This document shows positions 1 through 36,556 of a stretch of 64,000 bases of DNA, piece after piece. Position numbers and translations under genes: made by a program. Under the pieces are notes generated by a model. The model was not told the DNA's origin. It ran no database searches and saw nothing but the letters and a program-made list of their open reading frames with translations. Within the stretch, counting starts at the first letter, position 1, and every line of letters begins with the position of its first letter. Origin of the DNA: Iphione sp. A-MEVVRFRX5 (lineage: Eukaryota); contig OZ320322.1 in NCBI GenBank assembly GCA_976226885.1, positions 16,120,001 through 16,184,000 on the forward strand, in the 5' to 3' direction.

Positions 1-252
1 TCTCTGTTGCGACATGTCATGCATACTTTATGTTGTCAATACTGTCAATATGAAGTAAGTCACTAAAACAGTACTTTTAACATTTATTCTGTATTGCAGC
101 ATTTTGTGTATATTTTATCATGGCCATTCGAATTTAAATCCGTCGTTTAAATAGTGTTTTTCGATTTATCTTTGGAAGTGTTGGTCTCCATAGTTTCGGT
201 AATAATTTGATGAAGTTTTATTCTACTAAAGTCATTACCGGGGTCATTTCAG

Positions 253-3200
253 CACACGACATCAACTGTTACTCATGCCGTTACAGTCGAGGTCAAGATC
301 TAAAAGAGTGCTTGACAGACCCTTCCGAGGTGACCAGTGGGGACCACATCATACTTTGTGAAACCAACTGCACCACAATGGTCACATATGAGCATGGTAT
401 GTTCTCATGGTTTGAGAGAGGATGAAATTAAAGTCCAATCCAGTCAGAACTCGATTTCTGAATGTTTACTAAGAATAGTCGATTTCTGAATGTAATAATG
501 GTTAAATACATTAGTCTTTGATGAGCTGGCCACGGGTCAGAATATGAAAAGTATTAGGGGCTATTTCCATGTATGTAGGTTGTCCAGACTTGGGTTATAC
601 AACTTTACTATATTCTCCATGTGTGTGGGTTCTCCACACCTGCATGCGGGTCTGGACAGACCAGCATACCATGTAGCATGATTGCACCCTCCTCTGAATC
701 TGTGCAACTAATGTGGATGGAAGCAGAGGCCAAGGGTAGAATATGAAATGTAAATGGGTAAAGTATGAAATGTAGGGTATTTTTTTACAGATGAGCTTTA
801 TCACCTTCAGAGGGGGTGTGCAGAGAGTGAGGGAGGCTGTGTTGGCCCAGAAAATCAGAAAATTTGTACAGAACTGTGTGACCTTAACCTGTGCAACAAC
901 AAATCTTATTCGGATGACAATTCAGAGGGTAAGTCTTTATGCCCTTCTTTTCCTACCTGCAGCTGTTTTTAGGATTGTTCTGCATCTAACAAACAATACT
1001 CAACATAAGCAAAGGTCTTGGATACGGTAACCTATATATTGGACAAGGTATTAACATCCCTCAGACAACAGTACAGGGATATTGGTGCTCTATCAAACAC
1101 CAACTAATCACTCTCACTGAAGGTTTCAGGAACATTGCAATGCACATTAAACAACCTTAATTTCAGATTCTATTCCATTTTTGTTCAACGCATCTGTGGG
1201 AAAATCGCACTCATAGAGTTGTGCAGTGAGCCTCACTGCATTTTACATACACTGCAGTACAACTACTTTTGTTATGCAATAATATCTCAAGAAAAAAAGC
1301 CTGTTTTCAATATTTTGCATCAGACGTATTCATATTATTCAACTGTTCAGAAGGCAAGACCGTTTCCAAAATCGAGGGAAAAACTCAGGATCCAATGAAA
1401 AATGTTGTTGACCGGTAACTTAATGCTATAAAAGCTGAGTATGATAATATAGCCTATCAGAAATCTGAACTTTGAACTTAGAATCTTTAAATATATTTAA
1501 GCACCAATCACTTTAATACTTACAGACGATATCCTTATCGCGACTCCAGCCATCATCTGCAGATACTTATTACAGGATCATTACGGAAATTTTATCCTTC
1601 ATCTGTAAATACCTACATTAATATTCAAACCAAGATTCCGCCCATCACCTGTAGATACCTACAAAATTATTCTAACCAAGACATACCAATCAATCATAGA
1701 TACCTATGATAGTATCCTAACCAATATGTCACCTATCACCTTGAGATGCCTACAAAAATATCTTAACCAAACCTCGTTATCCAGAGACCTTCTGTTTCCT
1801 GAATTTTTTGTCTGCTTACCGAAAATCCAGATAACTTGAACATGAAATAACAGAAAAATCAGCTTCTGTTTCCTAAGAAATTGTCTGGATAATGGTGAAT
1901 TCCGGTTATTGAGTCTCCGGATGACGAGGTTCGATGACGATGTATTAATAGAAGGATTATTCAAAGTTAACATATATGTTTTCATCCAGTAGATTGCCAT
2001 TCTATATATCAAAAACTCAAATGGTTGATTGTTTTGATACGAACTTGTTCTTAATGGTAATTGCTTGGTTTTTTTTTCAGTATACAAATGCTTTTCGTGC
2101 AGCAGAGCCGATACGTCCTGTGACCAAGATGTAAACAAAGATAACACTGAATCCATTGACTGTCCGGAGCCTAAACTCTGCTTCATCAAGAGTCAGCAGA
2201 AATCTGGTAATGTTCTCTTCTCTATTCTAGCAGGGAAATCATGTGCTGTACATACAGTTACCTCCACCTAAACCGATCACCTAAGGGACTGAAAAAAGTG
2301 GTCACCTAAGGCAAATGGTCACCTAATCCATTGATTAGGTGCTCAAACCACAAAATGAAATTCATTCTCCCCCTCCCTCTACAAAGTTTATATGATTATT
2401 CCCTAGACAATTCCTTAAGTAGTTGAAAAAATAATGACTGAAATAAAGTTTTAAAAGTGTTGGATTTGATGGGCAAAAGTCAAAAAAGTTCTAAAAGTAC
2501 TCAATTTGATGGGTAAAAGTAAAAAGGTTCTCAGCGTGGAGACCCTCCTACAACATGGGCAACAGTCTTCTAAGCGCCTGCATACAGGCAACCATGAGTG
2601 GTCACCCCTGGCAACTACAAATGGGGGCATCCGTCGACTTTTCAGGCCAGAAAGACTCAAAAAACACATGCAACCTGGCAACTGGTCAGCCCAGGTATCC
2701 AGAAATCATAGTTTCGTTCTGAATAAGATGGGCTTATTGGCCGAATGGTCACCCTGAGTGAGTGGTGGCAGAGAGTATCATATAGAGAATGTACTGAAAT
2801 TCAGTATTTTCTGGGCAAATGTGGTCACCCTGGCCAAGTGGTCACCCCAGGCAGCTGGTTGCAGGGCAAGAGGCAACTGTATTCAGGTTATCTCGGGACT
2901 ATTTGAAATGTACCCAACGTCGTGGAAAGATTATGAATGACAAATGACATAGGAAAAACATTTATTTACATCTCAGAACGAAACACGTCGAGGTCTTCCT
3001 GTCAATTGGTGAAAAAACTGTAATGCAACAATGCTCTGAAAAGAATGCTTGTCAGTGAGGGTGACCGTTCTCCAAACACTAGTGATACAGTAAAATTCCA
3101 TACTACTAAAGCTAATTTAGTTATATTATCTTTTTTATTGGGCAATATGACGCCATGAAAGTCTCACCACAAACATGAAATTGCCTAAAGAAAATCCAGT

Positions 3201-3927
3201 TAACCATGGGCATAGTGTTTCTTGGACATCTCATCAGACAACTCAGTGTACTGACTCTGACTCCTAGTTTCGCATGCTTGTTTTACCACTTAACTGCATA
3301 AAAATCGACCACTTACCTGAATAGACATCTTCCATTTACCCCATAGATATCTATCTCTTACCTGAATAGACCTCTAACATTTACCTGTACAGACATGTAC
3401 CACTTACCAGCATAGACATCTACCACTTACCTGTATAGACATCTACCACTTACCTGCATAGACATTTATTTCTTACCTGCATAGACATTTATTACCTAGC
3501 TGTATAGACATCTACCATCTATCACTTACCTGTATAGACATCTATCATTTACCTGTTTAGACATCTCCCATCTTAACAAGAAATTTGTCAACAAAAAGTC
3601 AAGACTAGGAGTCCCTAAGCTGAATTAGTCTTCGTAGGCTCCTCATTTGGCCTAGGCATTAACATCTCTTTGATTTTAGATGGACAGCTGACAGATTTTG
3701 CGCGTGGTTGCGGGAACGACGTAGACATCAGTCGGTATCACGGGTCTACCCTGCCTTTCCTGGCCGTGGGAGAGAGGCGCACCCTCACGTTGTGCAAGGG
3801 CGACTTCTGCAATGATGACCCTGTCGTGCCGCCAGTCGGCGCCACCGCAGAGATCCGGGCAGCCTCGTTCTGCATTACTATGGGCTTCATCTGCGCAGTC
3901 ATGTACCAGTATATGGTCATCGCTTGA
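253..3927 (+). CDS. Two-domain Ly6/uPAR (three-finger, quiver/sleepless-like) GPI-anchored protein, 5'-partial; exons 253-396, 791-928, 2081-2206, 3680-3927
   Basis: All introns are GT..AG and phase 1, and the joined frame is open: HDINCYSC..ECL..LCETNC..RGC..GC..IC..LC..LCN then VYKCFSC..SC..DC..LC..RGC..LC..FCN, followed by a hydrophobic C-terminal tail (AASFCITMGFICAVMYQYMVIA*) typical of a GPI signal. The signal-peptide exon would lie upstream of the window. AATAAA at 4547. Confidence 0.88.
2255..2879. mobile_element. Non-autonomous Tc1/mariner-type MITE in intron 3 of the Ly6 gene
   Basis: TA flanks (2253-54, 2880-81), termini CAGTTACCTC / GAGGCAACTG, and many internal GGTCACC repeats in both orientations. 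Confidence 0.55.
3305..3570. repeat. Degenerate minisatellite, ~23-bp unit (acttacctgtatagacatctacc)
   Basis: About ten imperfect tandem copies are visible. Related looser repeats occur at ~1520-1710. Confidence 0.8.
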
Positions 3928-26935: not shown

Positions 26936-27189
26936 ATAGTCCAACCAACCAATCACATAAAAAACACTATCATACTTTTAATTCAACAACGGAGAAGCCC
27001 GTGTTGGGTGAAACTTGACCTCTACGTGAACTCTGAATCTGGCCTCACTCTCTTGGAGGAAAGTTTGATCACCGTGATGATATCAGTCTCACGTGGAGTT
27101 TGAGGCCCGAGCAACGACACCAACTCAACACAAAAAACATTCTTTACCCGCTCGGGCCCCTACTCACCACCCTGTGGAGGTCGGCTGTT

Positions 27190-28820
27190 CTACTCCTCCG
27201 TCCACATCACGTCAGTGTTGGTGCGACGCTGCTGAGGGGGGCGGGCCTCCAGGAGGTCCCACACAGTGGGGTCCTCCGTTCGTTGTTGGGCCCGCGCTGC
27301 TTGTGCCTCCCGCTCCCAGGTGTCGAAGGCCTCGCGCCTCGAGGCCGCCGTCGTCGCATAGGCCGGACGCGGGTCTTCGAGGAGGTTGGTCGCGGCTTCG
27401 ATCGATCGTTGTGCCAGCGGGTGACACGTTCGCGGTCGCCCCACTCGAGCCGGTCAGGGATCCGCATCCCTTCCAGCGCGAGGACCGGCCGCCTGACCAG
27501 GGGGTCGATGAGGTGCTGCGGCGATGCCTCCGACTCAGCCAGGGCCAGAACCCACGCCAAGGAGGAACTGGCGATGAAGCGAGAGGTTGGGCTCATCTCC
27601 ATCCAGCGGGGAGGGGGCCATTCCAGCCGCTGGGGAAGGCGTACCATAGTAGGAACCATGACGGCTCGCCGTATCGCCGGGTAGGGCGGCACTCGGCCGT
27701 CCAGAATTTCCCGGACTCGGCGGGACAGCAGGCCGAGCATGGGCGTGGTGAGTTCCTGTTCTGCCAGTCGTTGAAGGTGTCCTGGTGGGAGGGCTGCCTC
27801 CCGGGGCCGATCGCTTGACGGACCTCGAGAGGGTCCGGAGGCCTCCCAAGCCGTCAGGGTGTCAAGGAGGGCGGCCGGACTCCAGTCGGGGGTCGGAAGA
27901 GATGGCCCCCCTCGCAGTAAACTGGCGACTGACGTGGGCGTCCCTGGAGTGGCGCTGCTGCTTCGTCGTCCACCGCTGCCGGCTCTGGTTGACCCCCACG
28001 GGCCTCCGGTGACGGGAGATACACCCCGGCCCCAGGCATAGGGCGCTTGTGGTGCATCCCGGAGATACCCCCGCCCGGCAGGAGCTGGAGGCATGGGCGG
28101 AGTGCGGTCGCTCCCTACGCTGCCCTCCCCAGAGTCAGAGGGGGAAGCGGGACGTCCAACGGCGGCAGCGGCCGGTGAGGTGCGCCAGCGGGCTCGGCCA
28201 GAAGCATGGGGCGGCTGGGACTCCGGCGGGGGTGTGGACTCCATTGCCGATGAAGAAGATGGTCTGAGAGGCCCGGGTGGGGGCCTGGCTGCCGGTGTCC
28301 GAGGTGCACCGTGCCCAGGCAGAATAGAAGACGGTTGCCGCCCCCAGACGACGCGCCGCTCGGGGAGGCTCGGCCAACGCTCTAGGATCTCATCTACTTC
28401 CGCCGGACCCATGAAGGCGCCCAGAGTGGCGGAGAGCTGCCGGGCTCGGATGATGACGTCGGCCCGGTTGTCATCGGGCACGAAAAGTTCCCCCGCGTCA
28501 CCCTGTTGATGGTCGAAAAGGCTGCGGTAGGCGGGGGCCGTCAGTCCCCTCTCCATGACCCACGGATGGCGCCGCCGCAAATGGGCGAGCCAGGTGCCAG
28601 GCTCACCTAGGACGCTGGGACAGAAGAGGCAGTCCATCTGTCGGTGTCGGCGGCCCCCATGCTGCTCCTTCTGATGACCCTCCAAGGACTCCCCCGCCCA
28701 ATACACCCGGTGGGGTGTGCAGAGCTCACACCAAGCTGTACCAGGGGGCAGGGGTTCTCCCTCCTCCACCTGGGGTGCCGGGGGACGTGCCACTTTCTGC
28801 CGGGGCATGCCGCTTGCCAT
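27190..28820 (-). CDS. Gypsy accessory ORF, ~540 aa: two N-terminal C2H2-like zinc fingers, Pro/Ser-rich middle, duplicated M(V)R[LI]PxRLEW motif
   Basis: ORF 28820-27207 contains CELC-x14-H-x4-H and CLFC-x12-H-x4-H. A probable single-base frameshift near 27440 would instead end the protein in the 27444-27190 frame (..LAQRSIEAATNLLEDP..WTEE*). Function unknown. Confidence 0.7.
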
Positions 28821-28845
28821 AGAGAGAGAGGGCCAGACAGGGTGG

Positions 28846-29766
28846 TTGTGGAACCACAGGCTCGTTGACAGTACAGGTTAGGTCACGACGTGGGGCCACA
28901 GACTACAACACACAGAGATGATAGTCGGTGCTATCTAACAGTCAGCGACAGACAATCACTGTGGCACCACAGACAACAAGCTGACTGCACTTGGGGTGGC
29001 CACTCAGCCGCCCTAAGCTGTCATCAGAGATGGAGGTGCGAGGTGCGGTGAGGCCACAGCCCGGTGATGGCGACTGCCGCTCCTCGCCCAGTCACTCGAT
29101 CCTTCTGCAGCGTCTGCCCGAAACCGTGGTCTGTGGTTCCACGCTCACGATCAGCTTCCTGTTTCTCAATGCCCCGTTGGATGTGTCCACACAGAAAGAC
29201 TTATTTTTGGCACTGTCCCCCGGCGTCCCCGCTGTTCTTCTCAGCCTCCTCTCTCCCTCACGTGGCCAGCTGTGGTGCCACGGGCCGCCATTGATCACGT
29301 CTCGCAAGACCACGGGTTCTCTCGCGCCCCGCGAGATCCCGCGTCTCGCGCCCGTATCTCATCTGCGGGCCCACAGCGCAACTGCTTACTCTACGACTGC
29401 TGAAGATTCATTCTTTTTGTACTATAGGGGACTGGCAGGGATAGGACAAAAACTGTGCTACACCACTCTATTTTCCTTCCTTCGGCTGTGGCACCATAGG
29501 CACTTTCGCTGAGTTCTCCCTCTAGAGGGCGACACCTCCTCCCCGCCTGTGGTTCCACAGCCCGTTCACCTGATACGTTGTATCGGCTATTTCCCCTGAT
29601 TCCACCAATCACTCGTTATGTTAGATTTCTGTGGCACCACAGTATGAGTGGTTACCCTCTCAGCCAATCACTCGAATGCCAATGATATCTGTGGCACCAC
29701 ATACACGATCTTCGCTGCCCGCCGTAGCCAATCATCTTGGCCCACTGCACCCCCCCCAAATATAAA
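28846..29766. promoter_or_regulatory. Putative internal (possibly bidirectional) promoter of the Gypsy accessory region
   Basis: Ten CTGTGG-N2-CCACAG-like palindromes (28846-29702), TCTCGCG/CGCGAGA cluster (29300-29350), CCAAT at 29605, 29664, 29679 and 29728, TATAAA at 29761. Confidence 0.6.
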
Positions 29767-30002
29767 TGAGATGGGCTATAGCCAGCCTGCTTCATCTGGA
29801 CTCTTGCTGCACCCCACCAGGCTCCTCTATCCTTCCAGCTACCCCTTCCAGCTACCCCAGTTCTACAGGTACCCGTCTTGTGTAGGAATGGCAACTGCTT
29901 AACATCTTTGAACTAGCTGAACCGGAGACAAATCATAGTTTTTTTTTGTTTTTGTTTTTTTTTTTTTAACGGTTTTCTCCCTTTTTCAGCCTAAACCCAG
30001 CC

Positions 30003-30872
30003 ATGACCAATCAAGGGACCGCGTTTGGGCACCTTCCTGCTGCGGTTCTTTGGCCTTATCGCGTGTGAGTGTTTGGATAACTCTTCCTCTACTTCCACTC
30101 GTTCTAAGTGTTATCCAACATCGCCTCTTCCTGAAGTTTAGTGTCAGCCAGATCCGTCTTCATTTTTCCTGCCTATTTTCTCTTCCGTAGGCTCCGCTAT
30201 CGGCCCACCCTGCCCGGGTCAACCCCCTCCGGCATGAACATTCACACAGAAGGGCCGGTGGTACGAGTTTTCGGCACCCATGAGATCATAAATGCCCCCT
30301 TCATCTTGCCTGTTCCGGGCTGTCTGGTCTTCCTTGGACCGCTTCACGTGATTGACCTGGTGGTACGCCCCGTCGCCCCTCCTGGCTCAGCGTGACCCCC
30401 ACCAACGATGCCCGCCCCATCAGACTGGGCCACTTGCTACACCACCCCGGTGCCCCCACCGGCCTCTCCCTCCTCCAGTGCTTCCGGGTATGGCACCGAC
30501 AGCCCTTCATCCCTTACTAGCAGTCGTCTGGACCCCTGGGGGTCCCACCAGGACCTTTCCGCGATGGGCGCCTCACCACCCCCGGCAGACGGATCGGGTC
30601 ACCCCTCTCCGAGCCCACGGCCATCACCCACCCCATCGGGAGAAGACTCTGTACCGCCTCCGTCTCCGGCCGTCACGAGGTCAGAATGCACTACCCCTGA
30701 GACAGGCGATGGCATCTCCCGCAGCTCCTCACCCCTGGGGACTTCCCCTCCGGGAGGCCACGTGCCCTTCGCGGTGATTTCGACTCCCGCCCTGGCAGCC
30801 TGGTATCGTCAGCTTCGTTGGGGTGACGCCCCCTTCTGCCCTATCCTGGTATCTTCCTCCGATGAGGAATAG
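30003..30872 (+). pseudogene. Antisense accessory gene of the Gypsy element (Pro/Ser-rich, ~260 aa if spliced; one in-frame TGA)
   Basis: TATA 29761; candidate donor CAG|GTACC 29869; long pyrimidine tract with acceptor AG at 29988-89; gccATG 30003; candidate intron 30065-30151; frames 30141-30395 and 30408-30872 are the same frame separated by one TGA; AATAAA 30939. Confidence 0.5.
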
Positions 30873-31354
30873 GACCTTGATCGGTAACTATACTCCCCAT
30901 GCTAAGTACTCTGTAGCTGCGTGGCCGACATACCTTGAAATAAATTTCAACTAACTAATTTGTCCCCCGTGTTCATTCTATGTTCCATTCACTCTCAGAC
31001 TTAATTATAAACACCCTTCTCGTCATCCCGCAGCAGCGACCAGAGGACATAACCCGACCAGGTTCTAATTCCTTCGCCCTGGTCCGGGTTGGCTCCACCC
31101 CTGACAGTGTGCCGGCTCGCCCAGAGGACAAAGCCTGGTCAGACCTCCGTCTCCTTCTGGCCCAGGCCGGCTCCACCGTCAGTTCCACCTTCGTGGTCTG
31201 TCAACTTCCCAGCTACCAGCGGCCTACACTGCAAGCGGCCATAGTGCTGCCCTCCCTAACCGGGAGCTTTCTTCGCACACTATGGCTCGCCTTCCGACAA
31301 CATCTCCGGAGCTGCCTAGGTCCCCCCCTGGAGGACGTCCCCCCACTTCTCCCC

Positions 31355-31630
31355 CTAGAACTTTTGGGTACCGCACCCGGGGATGTCCAGCCTCCCCCTC
31401 TGGAGCTTTTGGGTCCCGCACCCGAGGATGTCCAGCCTCCCCCCTCTGGAGCTTTTGGGTCCCACACCCGAGGATGTCCAGCCTCCCCCCTCTGGAGCTT
31501 TTGGGTCCCAGACCCGAGGATGTCCAGCCTCCCCCCTCTGGAGCTTTTGGGTGCCACACCCGAGGATGTCCAGCCTCCCCCTCTGGAGCTATTGGGTCCC
31601 GCACCCGGGGATGTCCAGCCTCCCCTCCCT
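31355..31630. repeat. 45/46-bp tandem repeat (~6 copies) in the pol C-terminal tail
   Basis: Unit tctggagcttttgggtcccgcacccgaggatgtccagcctccccc(c); minus-strand reading EAGHPRVRDPKAPEG. Confidence 0.9.
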
Positions 31631-31699
31631 GGAGCTCTCTGCTCTCCCTAGTCCGACCTCCAATGGAAGATTTTTATCCTATCTTTTGCTACGAGCTCC

Positions 31700-34600
31700 C
31701 TTCCTTATTCGCTCGCCGCCGCCATGACTTGATCCAACGAGGTATCTCCCCTCGATACAGTCATAGGCGATTCCGGTGCACCACCTTGGGGCGAGCCCGG
31801 GCTGCCCGTTGGACCACCAATCGCTCTGGGTCCAGTACCTTAGTAACGAGCCATGGACCCGTCCAGGGCAAGTATACTTTAGGGCTCTTCCCTCTGGGTG
31901 GTTGAGCTTCGTGTAACCACACCGCGTTCCCTTCCTGTAGGGGTTCCCCTTTTGCCTGGCGATCGTATCCTCTAGCCTGCGTCCGTGCAGCCTTTAACAA
32001 GTGCTCCCGGACCGTCTGGTAAGCCCTCTTCAGCTGACGTTGAAGGCGCTGCACCCACTCTGGCATAGTCACCTGTTCCTTCCCCTCCCACTCACTAAGA
32101 GGGAGGCCATCCATCGCATGTGCTGGCAGGACCACCTCCCGACCGAACATCAGGAAGTTGGGTGTGAAGCCAGTACTGGCTTGGGGGGAAGCTCGGTAGG
32201 CCATCATAAGCAGTGGGAGTGCTTCATCCCAGTCGTCGCCGGTATCATAGCAGTGGGCTTTAATCATTTTCGATAAATCCGTCCCCCTGGGGGTGTCTAG
32301 GGGTCGTCTTGGTTCACTGCACCCACTCTGGCATAGTCACCTGTTCCTCTGTTGGTTCCTCTGTCGCTGTGGAGCTCCATGAAGCATCCATAACGAGAGA
32401 CCAAATCCTCCACTAGTACTTGTGCTATCCGGGTTGCCCTCTGGTCAGGAAGTGGGAAGGCCTCTAGCCATTTAGTAAAGTGGTCCCCCACCATCAAGAT
32501 ATAACAATTGCCCCGCTTGGTATGGGGGAACGGACCGGCCACGTCCATGGACCATCTCTCCATTGGCTTCCCGGACACATAAGTGCGCAGCGCCGTCTGT
32601 GGACGGAAGGGATTTACTGTCAGGAGAGCACAGTGACATTTCGCACAGAAATTTTGTATATCTTGTTGCATCCCGGGCCAGTAATACGCCAAGGACACCA
32701 GGAAAGTGGTGCGGTCTACCCCTAAGTGGCTACCCATCCGGCCTTGGTGGATTTCCTTGATAGCCTTGACTCGTCGCTGCGCAGGGAGTACCAGCTGCAG
32801 GCGGGTTCTTGAGGCTTCGAGCTCATGCCACTGCCGGTATAGCAGCCCCTCTTGTACCACCAGACGGTCCCACTGCTGCCATAGTTTCTTGGCCGCCCTC
32901 GACAAGGGGGAAATGTCCTCCCACTCTGGCCTACCAGATGTATCCTCGTTCAGCGTCAGGATAGGTCCAATATCTGGGTCGTCCAGCTGCGCACCCCAAA
33001 GGGCCCGATCTGCCGCCCCCTGAGTGCGGCCTCGGGTGACAACTCGTACCTCCACCCTATGCTCCTGCTTGCACTGTTTACAAGGCATTCAGGATAGAGC
33101 ATCCGCGTTACCATGCAGGCGCCCTGGTCGGTGCTGAAGGTGGAGGTGATATTGGCCGATTCTCTCCAGCCATCGAGCTAACTGCCCCTCAGGGTCCCGG
33201 ATACAGCTCAACCAGCTAACCGCCCCGTTGTCCGTCCGCACCGTGATCTCCTGCCCGTATATGAAAAAATGAAAATGTTTCAAAGCAGCTACCACCGCAA
33301 GCAGCTCCCTCCGCATCACACAATACCTCCGTTCCGGTGACGTGAGACTGCGGCTAAAGTACGCGAGGACTACTTCCTGGCCTCCCTGCTCTTGGGAAAG
33401 CACGGCTCCTAGCCCCACATTGCTGGCATCTGTGTCCAAATAAAAACGTCCCTTAGGCATCGGGTAGCCCAGCACGGGGCTGGCCTGCAATGCCCGTTTC
33501 AAAGATTCGAAGGCCTCCTCTTCTTCGGGGCCCCAATAAAACCGGGTCCGGGGGCTAGTCAGCCGGTGTAGGGGTGCTGCTAGATCGGCGAAATGAGCCA
33601 CCAGACGGCAGTAGTAGGAACAAAGTCCCAGAAAGGCTCTTACGTCGGTAGTGGAGGTCGGCCTCGGCCATTCCTGGATACACTGCACCTTCCCGGGATC
33701 CGCTGAAATTCCCCGATAGGACACCCGATGCCCCAGGAAAGGAACCTCCTCAAGGAACAAACGGCATTTAGCCGGTTTCAATTTTAAGCCAGCAGCCTCA
33801 ATTCGAGAGAGCACCTGATCCAACCGGGCTAGTGTCTCCCCAAAATCCCGCCCGAATACCAATACGTCGTCCAGATAGACTAGGCATTGCTCCCAGGTCA
33901 GTCCCCTGAGCACTGTGTCCATTAAGTGCTCAAACGTAGCAGGAGCGTTGACCAACCCAAATGGCATCACTGTAAACTCATACAACCCAGAGGATGTGGT
34001 GAAGGCCGTCTTTTCCTGGTCCCGCGGATCCATCTTAACCTGCCAATAGCCCGATGCTAAGTCTAACGAGCAAAAGTACCGAGCTCCCGCCAGTGCGCTT
34101 AACGAATCATCAACTCGGGGTAGGGGATACGCGTCAACCTTCGTCTGTTGGTTTAGTTTCCGGTAATCGACACAGAAACGAGTAGTTCCATCCTTCTTGC
34201 GTACCATGACTACGGGACTTGCCCAGGGGCTCTAGCTCTCGACAATGACCCCAGCCTCTGCCATTTCCCTTACTAGTTGCTGCTCTTCCTGTCTTCTTGA
34301 CAGGGGCAGGCGCCGAGGTTGCTGTTTAATGGGACCTGACTCCCCCGTGCAAATACAATGTTGCACCATGTCCGTACAACCCAAGTCACCTTTGTGTTGT
34401 GCAAAGGCCCCCCCTGTGCCGTTCTAACACCACCCACAGCTCTCCTTGTTCCCCTTCAGTGAGATGAACTGTCTTAGTGGCCATCAACTCATCTATTACG
34501 GTCCCTGTCCCCACCTTTGTGGTAGCCACTTTCAGGGGGTGGTCCTGGAGGCAGTCAGTAACCTCCTCCCTCTGCACTGGCGAGCCAAGGGCTAGAGACG

Positions 34601-35150
34601 TCCCCTGTTGGATCAACAGTTCCCTCTCCCCAGTGTTCCACACGGGCAGCACCTGGCTTACAACGCAACGCACTTCTACCACCCCTTGCAATAACCGACC
34701 CTCCTCTAAGCCCTCTACCAAGAATGGGCCCTCTCCACTGGGAGACACTGGGATCCCCACCCCTTCCCCAGGGGGAACCGTAATATCGGAGGCTGCCCTC
34801 AGTACCTTAACTCCCCTGGTCTGTTCCTTCCCCCTAGGGGTCCCTCCAAACAAAACCTCACCCTGTGACAAGTCAATGACAGTGCCATGCTGGGTCAAGA
34901 AATCTGCCCTCAATATCCCATCCCCTTCTATCTCTGCTAACAGGAAGTGGTGTTTGAATTCCTTTCCAGCAATCCCTACCTGCACCTCCTCTCTCCCTAC
35001 CGTTGGCAGGATATGGCCCCCTACCCCCATAACCTTTACAGCAGCCCTCTTAACAACTGGGCCAGGGACCACACAGGATATTCATAATGGAAACTTCAGC
35101 ACCCGTATCAATAAGCAGTAGGAGTGTCCTCCCACCACAGCTTACCTTGA
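31700..35150 (-). pseudogene. pol: Gypsy pol (protease, reverse transcriptase, RNase H, integrase), disrupted
   Basis: IDTGAEVS at ~35110; RFCVDYRKLN, DLASGYWQ, MPFGLVNAPATF, YLDD (~33870); TDASNVGLGAVL, ELLAVV, DALS; integrase H..H..C..C, WSMDVAGP, LHSDRGTN, GDAVWL-like GNAVWL and PWTGPW. Multiple stops and frameshifts. A low-complexity tail may continue to ~30970. Confidence 0.95.
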
Positions 35151-35216
35151 GATGTGGTCCCTGGCCGTATTCCATTATCACCTCCCGGTGGACAGATGCA
35201 GTCAGTGTCCCCTGGC

Positions 35217-36067
35217 CTACTGAGCCGACTGCTGTGTGTTTTCAGACGGTTTAGGCCCTGTAGTGTTCGATGCTTGCTGTGGGGCTTTCGGGCAATCTCT
35301 CTTCCAGTGACCCGGTTGCTTGCAGAGGAAACACAAATTGTCCCTGGGCCAAGACCTCTGAGGTTGCATTTCCTCCTGTAGTTTGGCAAACTCCTGCATT
35401 AGGACTTCCACCATGTCCTTGGGTGCTGTGCTGTTAGAATCCTTGTTGCCACTTGCTTGAACGCCGGGAACCGTTCTTGGATCTCCACTACCTGTAGTGC
35501 AGCCTCCATGGTCTTGCATTGGGCTTCTAAACATTTCAAATGCAGGTCATCAGGGAGTGCCAGTTGGAAGGCCGACACTGCTGCTAACTCTCGCGTTTCT
35601 GCACTCACATCGGGGTACGTGGTGCGTACAAGTCATCGGACTTTGTCAGCAAACCCCTTGGCATCCTCCCCTTTCTATCTGCGGATCGTGGACAGGTCTT
35701 GCATAGCCGTCACTCGATTACGTCGACGTCCAAACCGCTTTTCCAAGGCGGCTACCCTGGACTCAAAGTCAGCCTTGTCCTCTGATGGGAGGTCTCCAAA
35801 GTACATTCGGGCGGTGCCAGTCAACGACAGAGCCAGTGCTGAAGCTCTTGTGTTCGGACTCCACTTGCATGCATCTGCCCATTCGACAAACTGGACAATC
35901 CAGCTGTCCCAGTCGACTACGCTGCCATCGAATCATTCAGGTTTCATGGCATTGGTGCGCAGTGGCTCCTCTGGGGCTAGCACGTAAGGTTCAGCTTCTT
36001 CTTCATCGTCCGCATCCGGTACGCGTAGCTGTACCTCGTCGTCAACTGCCACAAACTTGGTAGCCAT
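35217..36067 (-). pseudogene. gag: Gypsy gag, disrupted
   Basis: ATG at 36067, 13 nt after the PBS; KPE*FDGSVVDWDSWIVQF..ALSLTGTARMYF..ALEKRFG; zinc knuckle CFLCKQPGHWKRDC at 35333-35292; three stops and one frameshift. Confidence 0.9.
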
Positions 36068-36079
36068 GATGTACAGTGG

Positions 36080-36097
36080 ATCCCACTTCTGACACCA
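36080..36097 (-). promoter_or_regulatory. Primer binding site TGGTGTCAGAAGTGGGAT (tRNA-Leu)
   Basis: Starts 1 nt from the 5' LTR; complementary to the 3' end of metazoan tRNA-Leu(CAG) (..ATCCCACTTCTGACA-CCA), from memory. Confidence 0.9.
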
Positions 36098-36098
36098 G

Positions 36099-36556
36099 TG
36101 TAGTTTCTACTTGGGTTCAATAAAGAACTGACAACTCTGAGTCCTGATTCCAAACTGTCTTTATTTATATCTTTTCCCCAATCAAGGCACTAGCCAATCA
36201 TCCGTCAGTATCAGAGTAAGAGAATACATTGTTACCTCCTTTAACAGTCCTTTCAACTAACCCACCAATCAGGAGAGGGCAAAGTATCACCTTTGGGCTG
36301 TGGGACCACAGCCGAGTGCTGCCGATCCAATCACAAGAGAGCTTTGAGACTCCAGGGTAGTTTGTTTTAAATCCAGGGGTGGCTGTGGTACCACAGCGAC
36401 CCTTAGTGCATGTGCACCGAGTCCAGTACTCCTGCACTTACTTCGTATAGCCAGTGCATCCCGACTGTGGCACCACACACTTCTGCGCACAGGGCGTGCA
36501 TCCGTACCTCCACCTGTGGCACCACAGCTCAAGGCCGGCTCCTGCATACCACTACA
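36099..36556 (-). repeat. 5' LTR (458 bp)
   Basis: TG..CA ends, adjacent PBS, followed by TSD ATAC. Confidence 0.97.

What the first reader, a model, noticed from the sequence alone, without database searches (positions are those of the whole stretch)
29605..30944. Complete-looking antisense transcription unit inside the retrotransposon
Seen, all on the strand opposite gag-pol and in the right order: four CCAAT boxes, TATAAA 29761, donor CAG|GT 29869, ~50-nt pyrimidine tract with AG 29989, gccATG 30003, donor GTGAGT 30065, acceptor CCAG 30151 (in frame; the intron holds a 9-bp TTGGATAAC/GTTATCCAA stem), TAG 30872, AATAAA 30939. The spliced product would be 260 aa with one internal TGA (30393-95), which could be a CGA>TGA change like those in gag-pol. 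It has a hydrophobic beta-rich N-terminal part, a Pro/Ser-rich middle and ends AAWYRQLRWGDAPFCPILVSSSDEE. The splice model is inferred; ATG 30234 is an alternative start.
Basis: partly seen in the sequence, partly recalled or inferred. Interest (0 to 1): 0.7.

Follow-up and report, generated by a model that had tools for sequence, protein, structure and literature searches.

The report
Spliced antisense gene in animal retrotransposon
A decayed jumping gene (Ty3/gypsy retrotransposon) in an animal genome probably carries a small two-intron extra gene read backwards from its own promoter, a layout known from plants and fungi, but neither expression nor conservation could be shown here.

Summary
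All listed motifs are present. They sit in the 5.2-kb region between pol and the 3' LTR of a decayed 10.5-kb Ty3/gypsy element. The second acceptor is wrong: AG 30190 ranks 1 of 639 in the element, AG 30151 ranks 248. Both are in frame, so the model becomes 247 codons, broken by one TGA at 30393. For a real gene: acceptors rank 1 and 3; a blind GC change-point falls at 30185; the leader has no ATG; the frame ends in the window's only strong SUMO-interacting-like motif (post hoc test). Against: frame openness alone is weak (P 0.05-0.07), no homologue was found, and no second copy or RNA data could be examined. New anatomy: the promoter shares CCAAT boxes and a TGTGGNNCCACA palindrome (13 found, 0.09 expected) with the LTRs, and faces an open sense ORF with C2H2-like fingers. 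Best reading: an antisense accessory gene of the Grande/Retand/Boty kind (0.6), probably a nuclear regulator (inferred). The scan has noted similar antisense genes in fungal and one invertebrate element, not this sequence.

The parts
36099..36556 (-). 5' LTR (458 bp), TGTAGT...ACTACA ends; four CCAAT, four TGTGGNNCCACA, TATAAA at 36169 on the minus strand
36080..36097 (-). primer-binding site starting TGGTGTCAGAAG (tRNA-Leu type)
   Evidence: the same 12-mer is called a tRNA-Leu PBS in PMC8905726 (passage)
35217..36067 (-). gag, broken; one CCHC knuckle
   Evidence: (PF00098 E 2.7e-7)
31690..35140 (-). pol (protease-like, RT, RNase H, integrase order), broken by stops and frame changes; ends approximate
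   Evidence: (PF00078, PF17919, PF17921, PF00665)
31361..31636 (.). tandem array, six copies of 45-46 nt
30959..31651 (+). second stop-free plus-strand frame (230 codons) behind the polyA signal; possible further exon through AG 30998 (rank 9 of 639) or chance
   Evidence: no Pfam; Atlas best 0.78
30939..30990 (+). AATAAA and a downstream GT-rich stretch: predicted 3' end, about 700 nt short of pol
   Evidence: function inferred
30840..30872 (+). C-terminal SIM-like motif PILVSSSDEE followed by TAG
   Evidence: definition from PMC12751080 (passages)
30393..30395 (+). in-frame TGA that breaks the antisense frame (codon 89 of 247)
30191..30872 (+). exon 3 coding part, 65% GC; beta-type start, Pro/Ser/Thr-rich middle (55%), no transmembrane-level hydrophobic segment (KD19 max 1.82), no basic cluster
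30065..30190 (+). intron 2 (126 nt, 44% GC) with a stem that pairs the donor region; acceptor rank 1 of 639
29990..30064 (+). exon 2; first ATG of the spliced RNA at 30003
29869..29989 (+). intron 1 (121 nt, 35% GC) in the leader; removes an upstream ATG at 29888; acceptor rank 3 of 639
29794..29868 (+). predicted non-coding exon 1; start inferred from an initiator-like TCATC 33 nt after TATAAA
   Evidence: initiator pattern recalled
29548..29766 (+). internal promoter: three TGTGGNNCCACA (29548, 29630, 29690), four CCAAT, TATAAA 29761
28821..29600 (-). leader side of the sense ORF: two more exact palindromes (28847, 28960), near-matches at 29132, 29271, 29487; possible donors 29569, 29389, 29261 and acceptors 29432, 28903
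   Evidence: splicing not tested
27207..28820 (-). sense extra ORF, 537 codons, two N-terminal C2H2-like motifs; probable frame change near 27400-27450
   Evidence: (0 of 2000 shuffles stop-free)
26501..26513 (-). polypurine tract next to the 3' LTR
26025..26500 (-). 3' LTR (476 bp); 9 substitutions in 458 aligned bases and one 18-bp gap against the 5' LTR; 4-bp target duplication ATAC at 26021-24 and 36557-60

Best explanation
The stretch is an antisense accessory gene of this retrotransposon family, broken in this copy. Shown: the signals, their order and their ranks. Inferred step 1: a CCAAT/TATA promoter fires on the plus strand near 29794. Step 2: introns 29869-29989 and 30065-30190 are spliced and the RNA ends after AATAAA 30939, before it overlaps pol. 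Step 3: because the introns lie on the strand opposite the genomic RNA, they are not spliced out during retrotransposition and are inherited (follows from the LTR replication cycle). Step 4: translation from ATG 30003 gave a 247-aa soluble protein with a small N-terminal domain, a disordered Pro/Ser/Thr linker and a C-terminal SUMO-interacting motif. Step 5: the promoter uses the same parts as the LTR promoter, so it is switched on with it, and the protein acts in the nucleus on SUMO-marked chromatin or silencing factors to tune the element's expression. About 0.6 for a once-coding antisense gene; about 0.3 for the SUMO-binding regulator role.
For: Acceptors rank 1 and 3 of 639, both within 430 nt downstream of the TATA box (rough chance 0.002-0.006 if placed at random, my arithmetic). 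Blind GC segmentation puts a boundary at 30185, 6 nt from the exon start 30191, at all three penalties. Introns and 3' region 35-44% GC, exons 57-65%. Spliced leader has no ATG; the best acceptor keeps ATG 30003 in the most open frame, 1 stop against 4-8 in the other five. SIM-like motif: 1 hit in 127,996 six-frame residues at five or more S/T/D/E, exactly at the stop; with the narrower core still the only hit at a stop at three or more (19 hits), while a looser core gives 3 of 56 at stops; 0.0001 in residue shuffles. One break in 744 nt fits gag-pol decay (at least five stops and four frame changes in about 4.3 kb, read by eye). Palindrome 13 found against 0.09 expected, all in the element. 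Precedent: Grande gene23 has its own promoter and a nuclear product (PMC7264820).
Against: No homologue of the frame among 1763 word-sharing candidates of 124-396 aa, none in Pfam, none in 92 RT-related loci. Openness and periodicity are not significant alone. Donors are mediocre. The plus strand of the whole element is pyrimidine-rich, and 11 of the 15 best acceptors other than the two used include 9 plus-strand sites, 6 of them inside gag-pol. The GC fall at the 3' end comes at 30842, 31 nt before the stop. The SIM pattern was recalled and chosen after seeing the sequence; SIMs are loose motifs (PMC12751080). No basic nuclear-localisation cluster. The intron-2 stem pairs the donor itself, which could hinder splicing. 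Related elements with 50-58% RT identity show no such unit.
Confidence: 0.6

Rival explanations
1. The promoter, introns and polyA site are real but the RNA is a non-coding regulator, as for micropia: it pairs with the 3' part of the genomic RNA, feeds small-RNA silencing or interferes with transcription. The frame is a by-product of high GC.
For: Promoter and splice signals are stronger than the coding signals. Non-coding antisense RNAs are reported for micropia (PMC7264820). No homologue.
Against: GC boundary at the acceptor, first ATG in the open frame, and the SIM-like motif exactly at the stop. The predicted RNA stops short of pol, whereas the micropia RNA is complementary to RT (reference title).
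Confidence: 0.17
2. The CCAAT/palindrome cluster mainly drives the sense zinc-finger-like ORF towards lower coordinates, as the LTR does; the plus-strand features are incidental.
For: In the LTRs the CCAAT boxes read on the plus strand while transcription runs on the minus strand, the same orientation as here. Palindromes continue down to 28847, next to ATG 28820. Minus-strand donor 29569 and acceptor 29432 (rank 10 of 639) exist. The sense ORF is clearly non-random.
Against: The only TATAAA near the cluster is on the plus strand. It leaves the two top acceptors, the GC boundary and the SIM-like end unexplained. Acceptor 29432 drops to 79-160 of 639 on three of four other scores. It does not exclude a two-way promoter.
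Confidence: 0.1
3. A captured host or mobile-element gene fragment rides along without function; its introns survive only because it is backwards.
For: Relatives L044, L029 and L030 place a zinc-finger-like ORF within 200-400 nt of pol, whereas this element has 2.9 kb there, so the antisense block looks inserted.
Against: Its promoter carries the element's own palindrome, which occurs nowhere else in the window. No host gene matches. The T-tract shows no target duplication that would mark a retroposed tail.
Confidence: 0.08
4. Chance: a pyrimidine-rich strand and GC-rich filler produce splice-like sites and a near-open frame.
For: P 0.21-0.26 for a frame this open in any of six; plus-strand bias of good acceptors; features were picked after the fact.
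Against: Joint occurrence in order within 1.4 kb of a promoter that only the LTRs and one other site match, two of the three best acceptors, and the unique SIM-like end.
Confidence: 0.05

Closest known systems
Antisense additional ORFs between pol and 3' LTR (aORF-3R) of plant Ty3/gypsy: maize Grande gene23, rice RIRE2, Silene Retand (PMC7264820, parts 1-2 of 3 read; PMC11963269, passages)
   Same: Ty3/gypsy; long pol-3'LTR region (5.2 kb here, 2.9-6.6 kb in Retand); antisense ORF; tandem array in the same region; own upstream promoter (shown for Grande); proposed nuclear regulatory role.
   Different: Animal host; no TRP28 (PF04195) or any Pfam match; two predicted introns (the word intron does not occur in the Retand paper); promoter shares a palindrome with the LTRs; head-to-head with a sense zinc-finger-like ORF; conservation and expression not shown.
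brtn of Boty elements, Botrytis (named in PMC7264820 and PMC8365987, passages; original paper not seen)
   Same: Additional antisense gene in the 3' region of a Ty3/gypsy element outside plants.
   Different: Fungal element; no sequence comparison was made; no six-cysteine pattern in this frame.
Foamy virus internal promoter with Tas/Bet (PMC13220597, abstract only)
   Same: Works-like analogy: an internal promoter in the 3' region drives accessory genes, and an element-encoded factor acts on both internal and LTR promoters.
   Different: Retrovirus; sense strand; binding by Tas is shown there, whereas binding of the zinc-finger-like ORF to the palindrome is only a hypothesis here. No sequence similarity tested.
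HTLV-1 hbz and HIV-1 antisense transcripts (PMC10186651, passages)
   Same: Spliced antisense RNA coding a nuclear regulator (hbz).
   Different: Driven by TATA-less promoters in the 3' LTR; here a TATA-containing internal promoter 3.2 kb inside the element.
Extra ORFs of animal LTR retrotransposons: bdelloid ORF3 types (PMC5408684, passages), Cer1 CERV (PMC10309623, abstract), micropia antisense RNA (via PMC7264820)
   Same: Animal elements carry accessory ORFs or antisense RNAs.
   Different: The passages seen describe env, GDSL, DEDDy and TM ORF3 types and a spliced nuclear export factor; micropia's antisense RNAs are non-coding. None is an antisense spliced coding unit with its own promoter.

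Membership tests
Ty3/gypsy LTR retrotransposon | Two LTRs with TG...CA ends, PBS, PPT, target duplication | tested here: met
Ty3/gypsy LTR retrotransposon | gag, then pol in the order PR-RT-RH-INT | tested here: met
   protease recognised by position and a DTG motif only, no Pfam hit
Named gypsy clade | RT groups with reference elements of one clade | tested here: inconclusive
   groups with three unnamed ENA proteins (support 0.97), near sea cucumber and arthropod RTs; no clade references in the tree
Antisense additional ORF (aORF-3R type) | Antisense frame between pol and 3' LTR | tested here: met
Antisense additional ORF (aORF-3R type) | Present and conserved in most copies of the family | not testable with these tools
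   no genome held; no second copy in the window or in 121 fetched loci
Antisense additional ORF (aORF-3R type) | Transcribed from its own upstream promoter | tested here: inconclusive
   promoter motifs enriched; no RNA examined
Retand aORF | TRP28 domain (PF04195) | tested here: not met
   0 Pfam families at E up to 1
env-like ORF | Sense orientation and transmembrane segment | tested here: not met
   antisense; KD19 maximum 1.82 in the N-terminal beta-type part, no C-terminal anchor
SUMO-interacting motif | Four-residue core with at least three hydrophobic residues, flanked by acidic and Ser residues | tested here: met
   ILV then SSSDEE; definition in PMC12751080
SUMO-interacting motif | Binds SUMO | not testable with these tools
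   needs a binding assay
C2H2 zinc-finger protein (sense ORF) | C-x2-C...H-x3/5-H fingers recognised by a family model | tested here: inconclusive
   two patterns by eye; no Pfam hit; Atlas features 0.91-0.94, 9 of 10 best family-bearing hits share a family or clan; fold pLDDT 38
Foamy-type internal promoter circuit | Element-encoded factor binds both LTR and internal promoter | not testable with these tools
   only the shared palindrome is shown

The most novel reading that the evidence does not exclude
An animal Ty3/gypsy family runs a complex-retrovirus-like control circuit from a two-way internal promoter. One direction makes a two-finger protein that binds the TGTGGNNCCACA palindromes in both the LTR and the internal promoter (autoregulation, as foamy Tas does). 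The other direction makes a spliced antisense protein whose C-terminal SIM engages SUMO-dependent silencing machinery, a self-encoded anti-silencing or tuning factor.
Probability: 0.15. Interest if true: 0.8.

Novelty: new variant of a known kind. Interest (0 to 1): 0.5.

Why it matters
Antisense accessory genes of LTR retrotransposons are described for plants and fungi and their function is an open question (PMC7264820). Ten literature searches (open-licence library only) returned no description of a spliced antisense coding gene with its own promoter in an animal gypsy element; subscription papers and Repbase were not searched. If real, this unit gives direct handles for tests: a shared promoter palindrome, a candidate binder encoded next door, and a SUMO-binding motif. 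If the frame is not conserved, it is an ordinary decayed tail with a promoter.

Tried and rejected
RNA runs for 27000-31300: no RNA holder was listed; this is not evidence either way, and no reads were laid. Homologue searches: antisense exon-3 frame none (lengths 124-396 only); sense ORF none (and 0 in 1.84 billion representatives). No language-model look-up, profile-library search beyond Pfam, or fold of the antisense protein was obtained, so its fold and remote kin stay open. Single-sequence fold of the sense ORF's first 157 residues: pLDDT 38, not used. RT scan of viral contigs with the single protein: none; with alignment A1: 12 viral and 80 of 572 metagenome loci, none similar to the 3' region by tblastn or blastn; a weak match of the sense ORF to L077 (E 0.06-0.08) was rejected. 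Palindrome-plus-CCAAT scan: 29 loci, each with one match and no RT, treated as chance. Rejected: acceptor 30151; T-tract as a retroposed polyA tail (no duplication of 8 nt or more in the element); internal promoter as a plain LTR duplicate (local alignment 40 and 36 against shuffle maxima 39 and 36, only the palindromes align); env-like product. The L001 'tail' is a permuted contig holding gag, not an extra region. Earlier-finding look-ups by place and sequence were empty. The tree used 44 RT sequences: window, loci with at least 48% identity over 330 residues plus three distant ones, and 13 of 120 listed proteins.

Full report
Setting. The finding lies inside a 10.5-kb LTR retrotransposon on the minus strand (26025-36556). 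The LTRs differ by 9 substitutions in 458 aligned bases and one 18-bp gap. There is a 4-bp target duplication, a PBS starting TGGTGTCAGAAG and a PPT; PMC8905726 calls that 12-mer a tRNA-Leu PBS (one passage). Pfam finds a CCHC knuckle, RT, RNase H and integrase in gypsy order. gag-pol is broken by at least five in-frame stops and four frame changes (read by eye). The closest RT proteins are 55-63% identical; named ones come from a sea cucumber, spiders, insects and a nematode record. In a tree of 44 RTs the element groups with three unnamed ENA proteins. An animal host is inferred from these hits and from the surrounding repeats; it is not identified.

The 3' region. Between pol (ends near 31690) and the 3' LTR lie 5.2 kb. 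From pol downward: a 45-46-nt tandem array, the antisense unit, a promoter cluster, and a 537-codon sense ORF (28820 to 27207). That ORF is stop-free in 0 of 2000 shuffles and starts with two C2H2-like patterns. The Atlas places its first 170 residues near C2H2 clusters at 0.91-0.94. Pfam and two homologue searches find nothing.

Observation. One correction matters. Donor 30065 joins the long frame through AG 30136, 30151 or 30190. With a simple pyrimidine score over all 639 YAG sites on both strands of the internal region, 30190 ranks 1, 29989 ranks 3 and 30151 ranks 248. Four alternative scores keep 30190 far above 30151. The model is therefore 247 codons with introns of 121 and 126 nt. The frame is broken by one TGA at 30393 (codon 89).

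Is it more than chance? Weak parts: one stop in 226 codons has P 0.07 for that frame and 0.26 for any of six; codon periodicity p 0.09; 60 and 134 of 1102 GT sites score at least as well as the two donors; the plus strand is pyrimidine-rich throughout, so good-looking acceptors also lie inside pol. Strong parts: all four CCAAT carry the fuller RCCAAT(C/G)R flanks (recalled NF-Y pattern), 4 of 33 such sites in the window. TATAAA with four CCAAT upstream occurs at 4 of 57 sites, three of them in this element. A segmentation blind to the gene model puts a GC step at 30185, 6 nt from the exon start; the closing step is at 30842, 31 nt before the stop. The spliced leader has no ATG, provided the start lies after the ATG at 29771. 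The frame ends in PILVSSSDEE-stop. A recalled SIM pattern with five or more S/T/D/E finds this one hit in 127,996 six-frame residues. At three or more it is the only hit at a stop of 19 for one core and 1 of 3 at stops of 56 for a looser core; at two or more it is not special. The pattern was chosen after seeing the motif, and the review consulted calls SIMs loose (PMC12751080, passages).

Promoter. TGTGGNNCCACA occurs 13 times against 0.09 expected, all inside the element: four per LTR and five between 28847 and 29701. All 13 contain ACCACA or TGTGGT, the Runx core (recalled). The LTR promoter and the internal promoter thus use the same three parts, palindrome, CCAAT and TATAAA, firing in opposite directions. 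They are not plain duplicates: only the palindromes align. Minus-strand donors and acceptors between the cluster and ATG 28820 allow a two-way promoter, but they are weaker and untested.

Relatives. No genome is held. Of 92 RT-related loci (33-61% identity), none matches the antisense frame, the sense ORF or the 3' DNA. Of 21 tails examined, several carry other extra ORFs. L044 (52%) and L029/L030 (54%, near-identical to each other) have a sense ORF with N-terminal C2H2-like patterns within 200-400 nt of pol. Similarity to the window's ORF is marginal (E 0.04 pairwise) and they are not sisters in the tree. They leave no room for an antisense block, and L017 and L027 have no extra region at all. 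The antisense unit therefore looks like a lineage-specific addition. Conservation within the family, the key test, could not be run.

How it most likely works. Shown: the anatomy above. Inferred: plus-strand transcription from about 29794, two splices, a 3' end after AATAAA 30939 that avoids pol, and translation from ATG 30003. Introns on the strand opposite the genomic RNA survive reverse transcription, which explains why an intron-bearing gene is found backwards (established replication logic; an earlier scan note, e1-7496389, made the same point). The product has no membrane anchor and no basic cluster, a Pro/Ser/Thr-rich middle and a SIM-like end with a CK2-type context. I commit to a nuclear, SUMO-binding regulator expressed together with the LTR: 0.6 that it is a once-coding antisense gene, about 0.3 for that role. 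Rivals: non-coding antisense regulator 0.17, promoter serving the sense ORF only 0.10, passenger capture 0.08, chance 0.05.

Comparison. It works like the antisense additional ORFs of Grande, RIRE2, Retand and Boty (PMC7264820, parts 1-2 of 3; PMC11963269, passages; PMC8365987, passages). Position and orientation are met. The Retand TRP28 domain is not met. Family-wide conservation and expression were not testable. The shared-site, internal-promoter layout recalls foamy virus Tas/Bet (PMC13220597, abstract) as an analogy only. HTLV-1 hbz is spliced and antisense but starts in the 3' LTR without TATA (PMC10186651, passages). Animal extra ORFs seen in print were of other kinds (PMC5408684 and PMC8220671, passages; PMC10309623, abstract). 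Supplements were not read; element tables in them could hold unlisted animal cases.

Verdict. A probably real, now broken, antisense accessory gene: a new variant of a known kind. Interest 0.5. It would rise to about 0.8 if copies conserve the frame and the neighbouring finger protein binds the palindrome.

Noticed in passing
window 28820-27207 (-): Open 537-codon sense extra ORF with two C2H2-like motifs and no homologue in 1.84 billion representatives; an alternative frame near its end (27453-27190) scores as more coding-like, so it is probably frameshifted near 27400-27450.
   Followed up: partly
window 30959-31651 (+): Second stop-free antisense frame with some codon periodicity (p 0.006 whole, 0.035 before the repeats), acceptor 30998 (rank 9) and TATAAA 31006; phase-matching donors exist at 30808 and 30823, so a longer splice form is possible.
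   Followed up: partly
window 36164-36169 and 26086-26113: The 5' LTR lacks 18 bp that separate TATAAA from AATAAA in the 3' LTR, so the two signals overlap in the 5' LTR.
   Followed up: no
window 26726-26914: Three to four copies of a 49-nt unit with a TACGGCCGT core in the region before the PPT.
   Followed up: no
window 32049-32080 and 32317-32348: A 32-nt stretch is duplicated inside integrase at a frame change.
   Followed up: no
window 35145 (-): Best-scoring donor of the element (AAG|GTAAGC) just after gag; could feed a spliced LTR transcript to the sense ORF.
   Followed up: no
L044 6647-7978, L030 7821-8678, L029: Related gypsy elements carry sense ORFs after pol with N-terminal C2H2-like patterns; the L030 ORF also ends in a hydrophobic-acidic motif.
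   Followed up: partly
L077 9075-7705 (-): 457-codon antisense ORF with weak C2H2 hits (Pfam E 0.012) downstream of a distant RT (41%); whether it lies inside the element was not checked.
   Followed up: no
L032 5118-5573, L037 7295-7780, L046 6011-8056: Extra ORFs with weak GDSL-lipase hits (L032, L037) and a baculovirus-F-like envelope hit (L046, E 5e-11).
   Followed up: no
L002-L007, L011, L012: Distant LTR elements with four to six copies of another palindrome, CTCGC-N4-GCGAG, near their ends: repeated palindromes may be a wider LTR trait.
   Followed up: no
window 138-425 and 3619-3927 (+): Two frames that read like exons of a small cysteine-rich Ly6/uPAR-type host gene (pattern recalled).
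   Followed up: no
window 17316-20536 (+) and 49241-51384 (-): Fragments that read like a decayed LINE (endonuclease and RT) and a piggyBac-type transposase (recalled).
   Followed up: no
window 41778-43398: Array of five to six 288-nt units.
   Followed up: no
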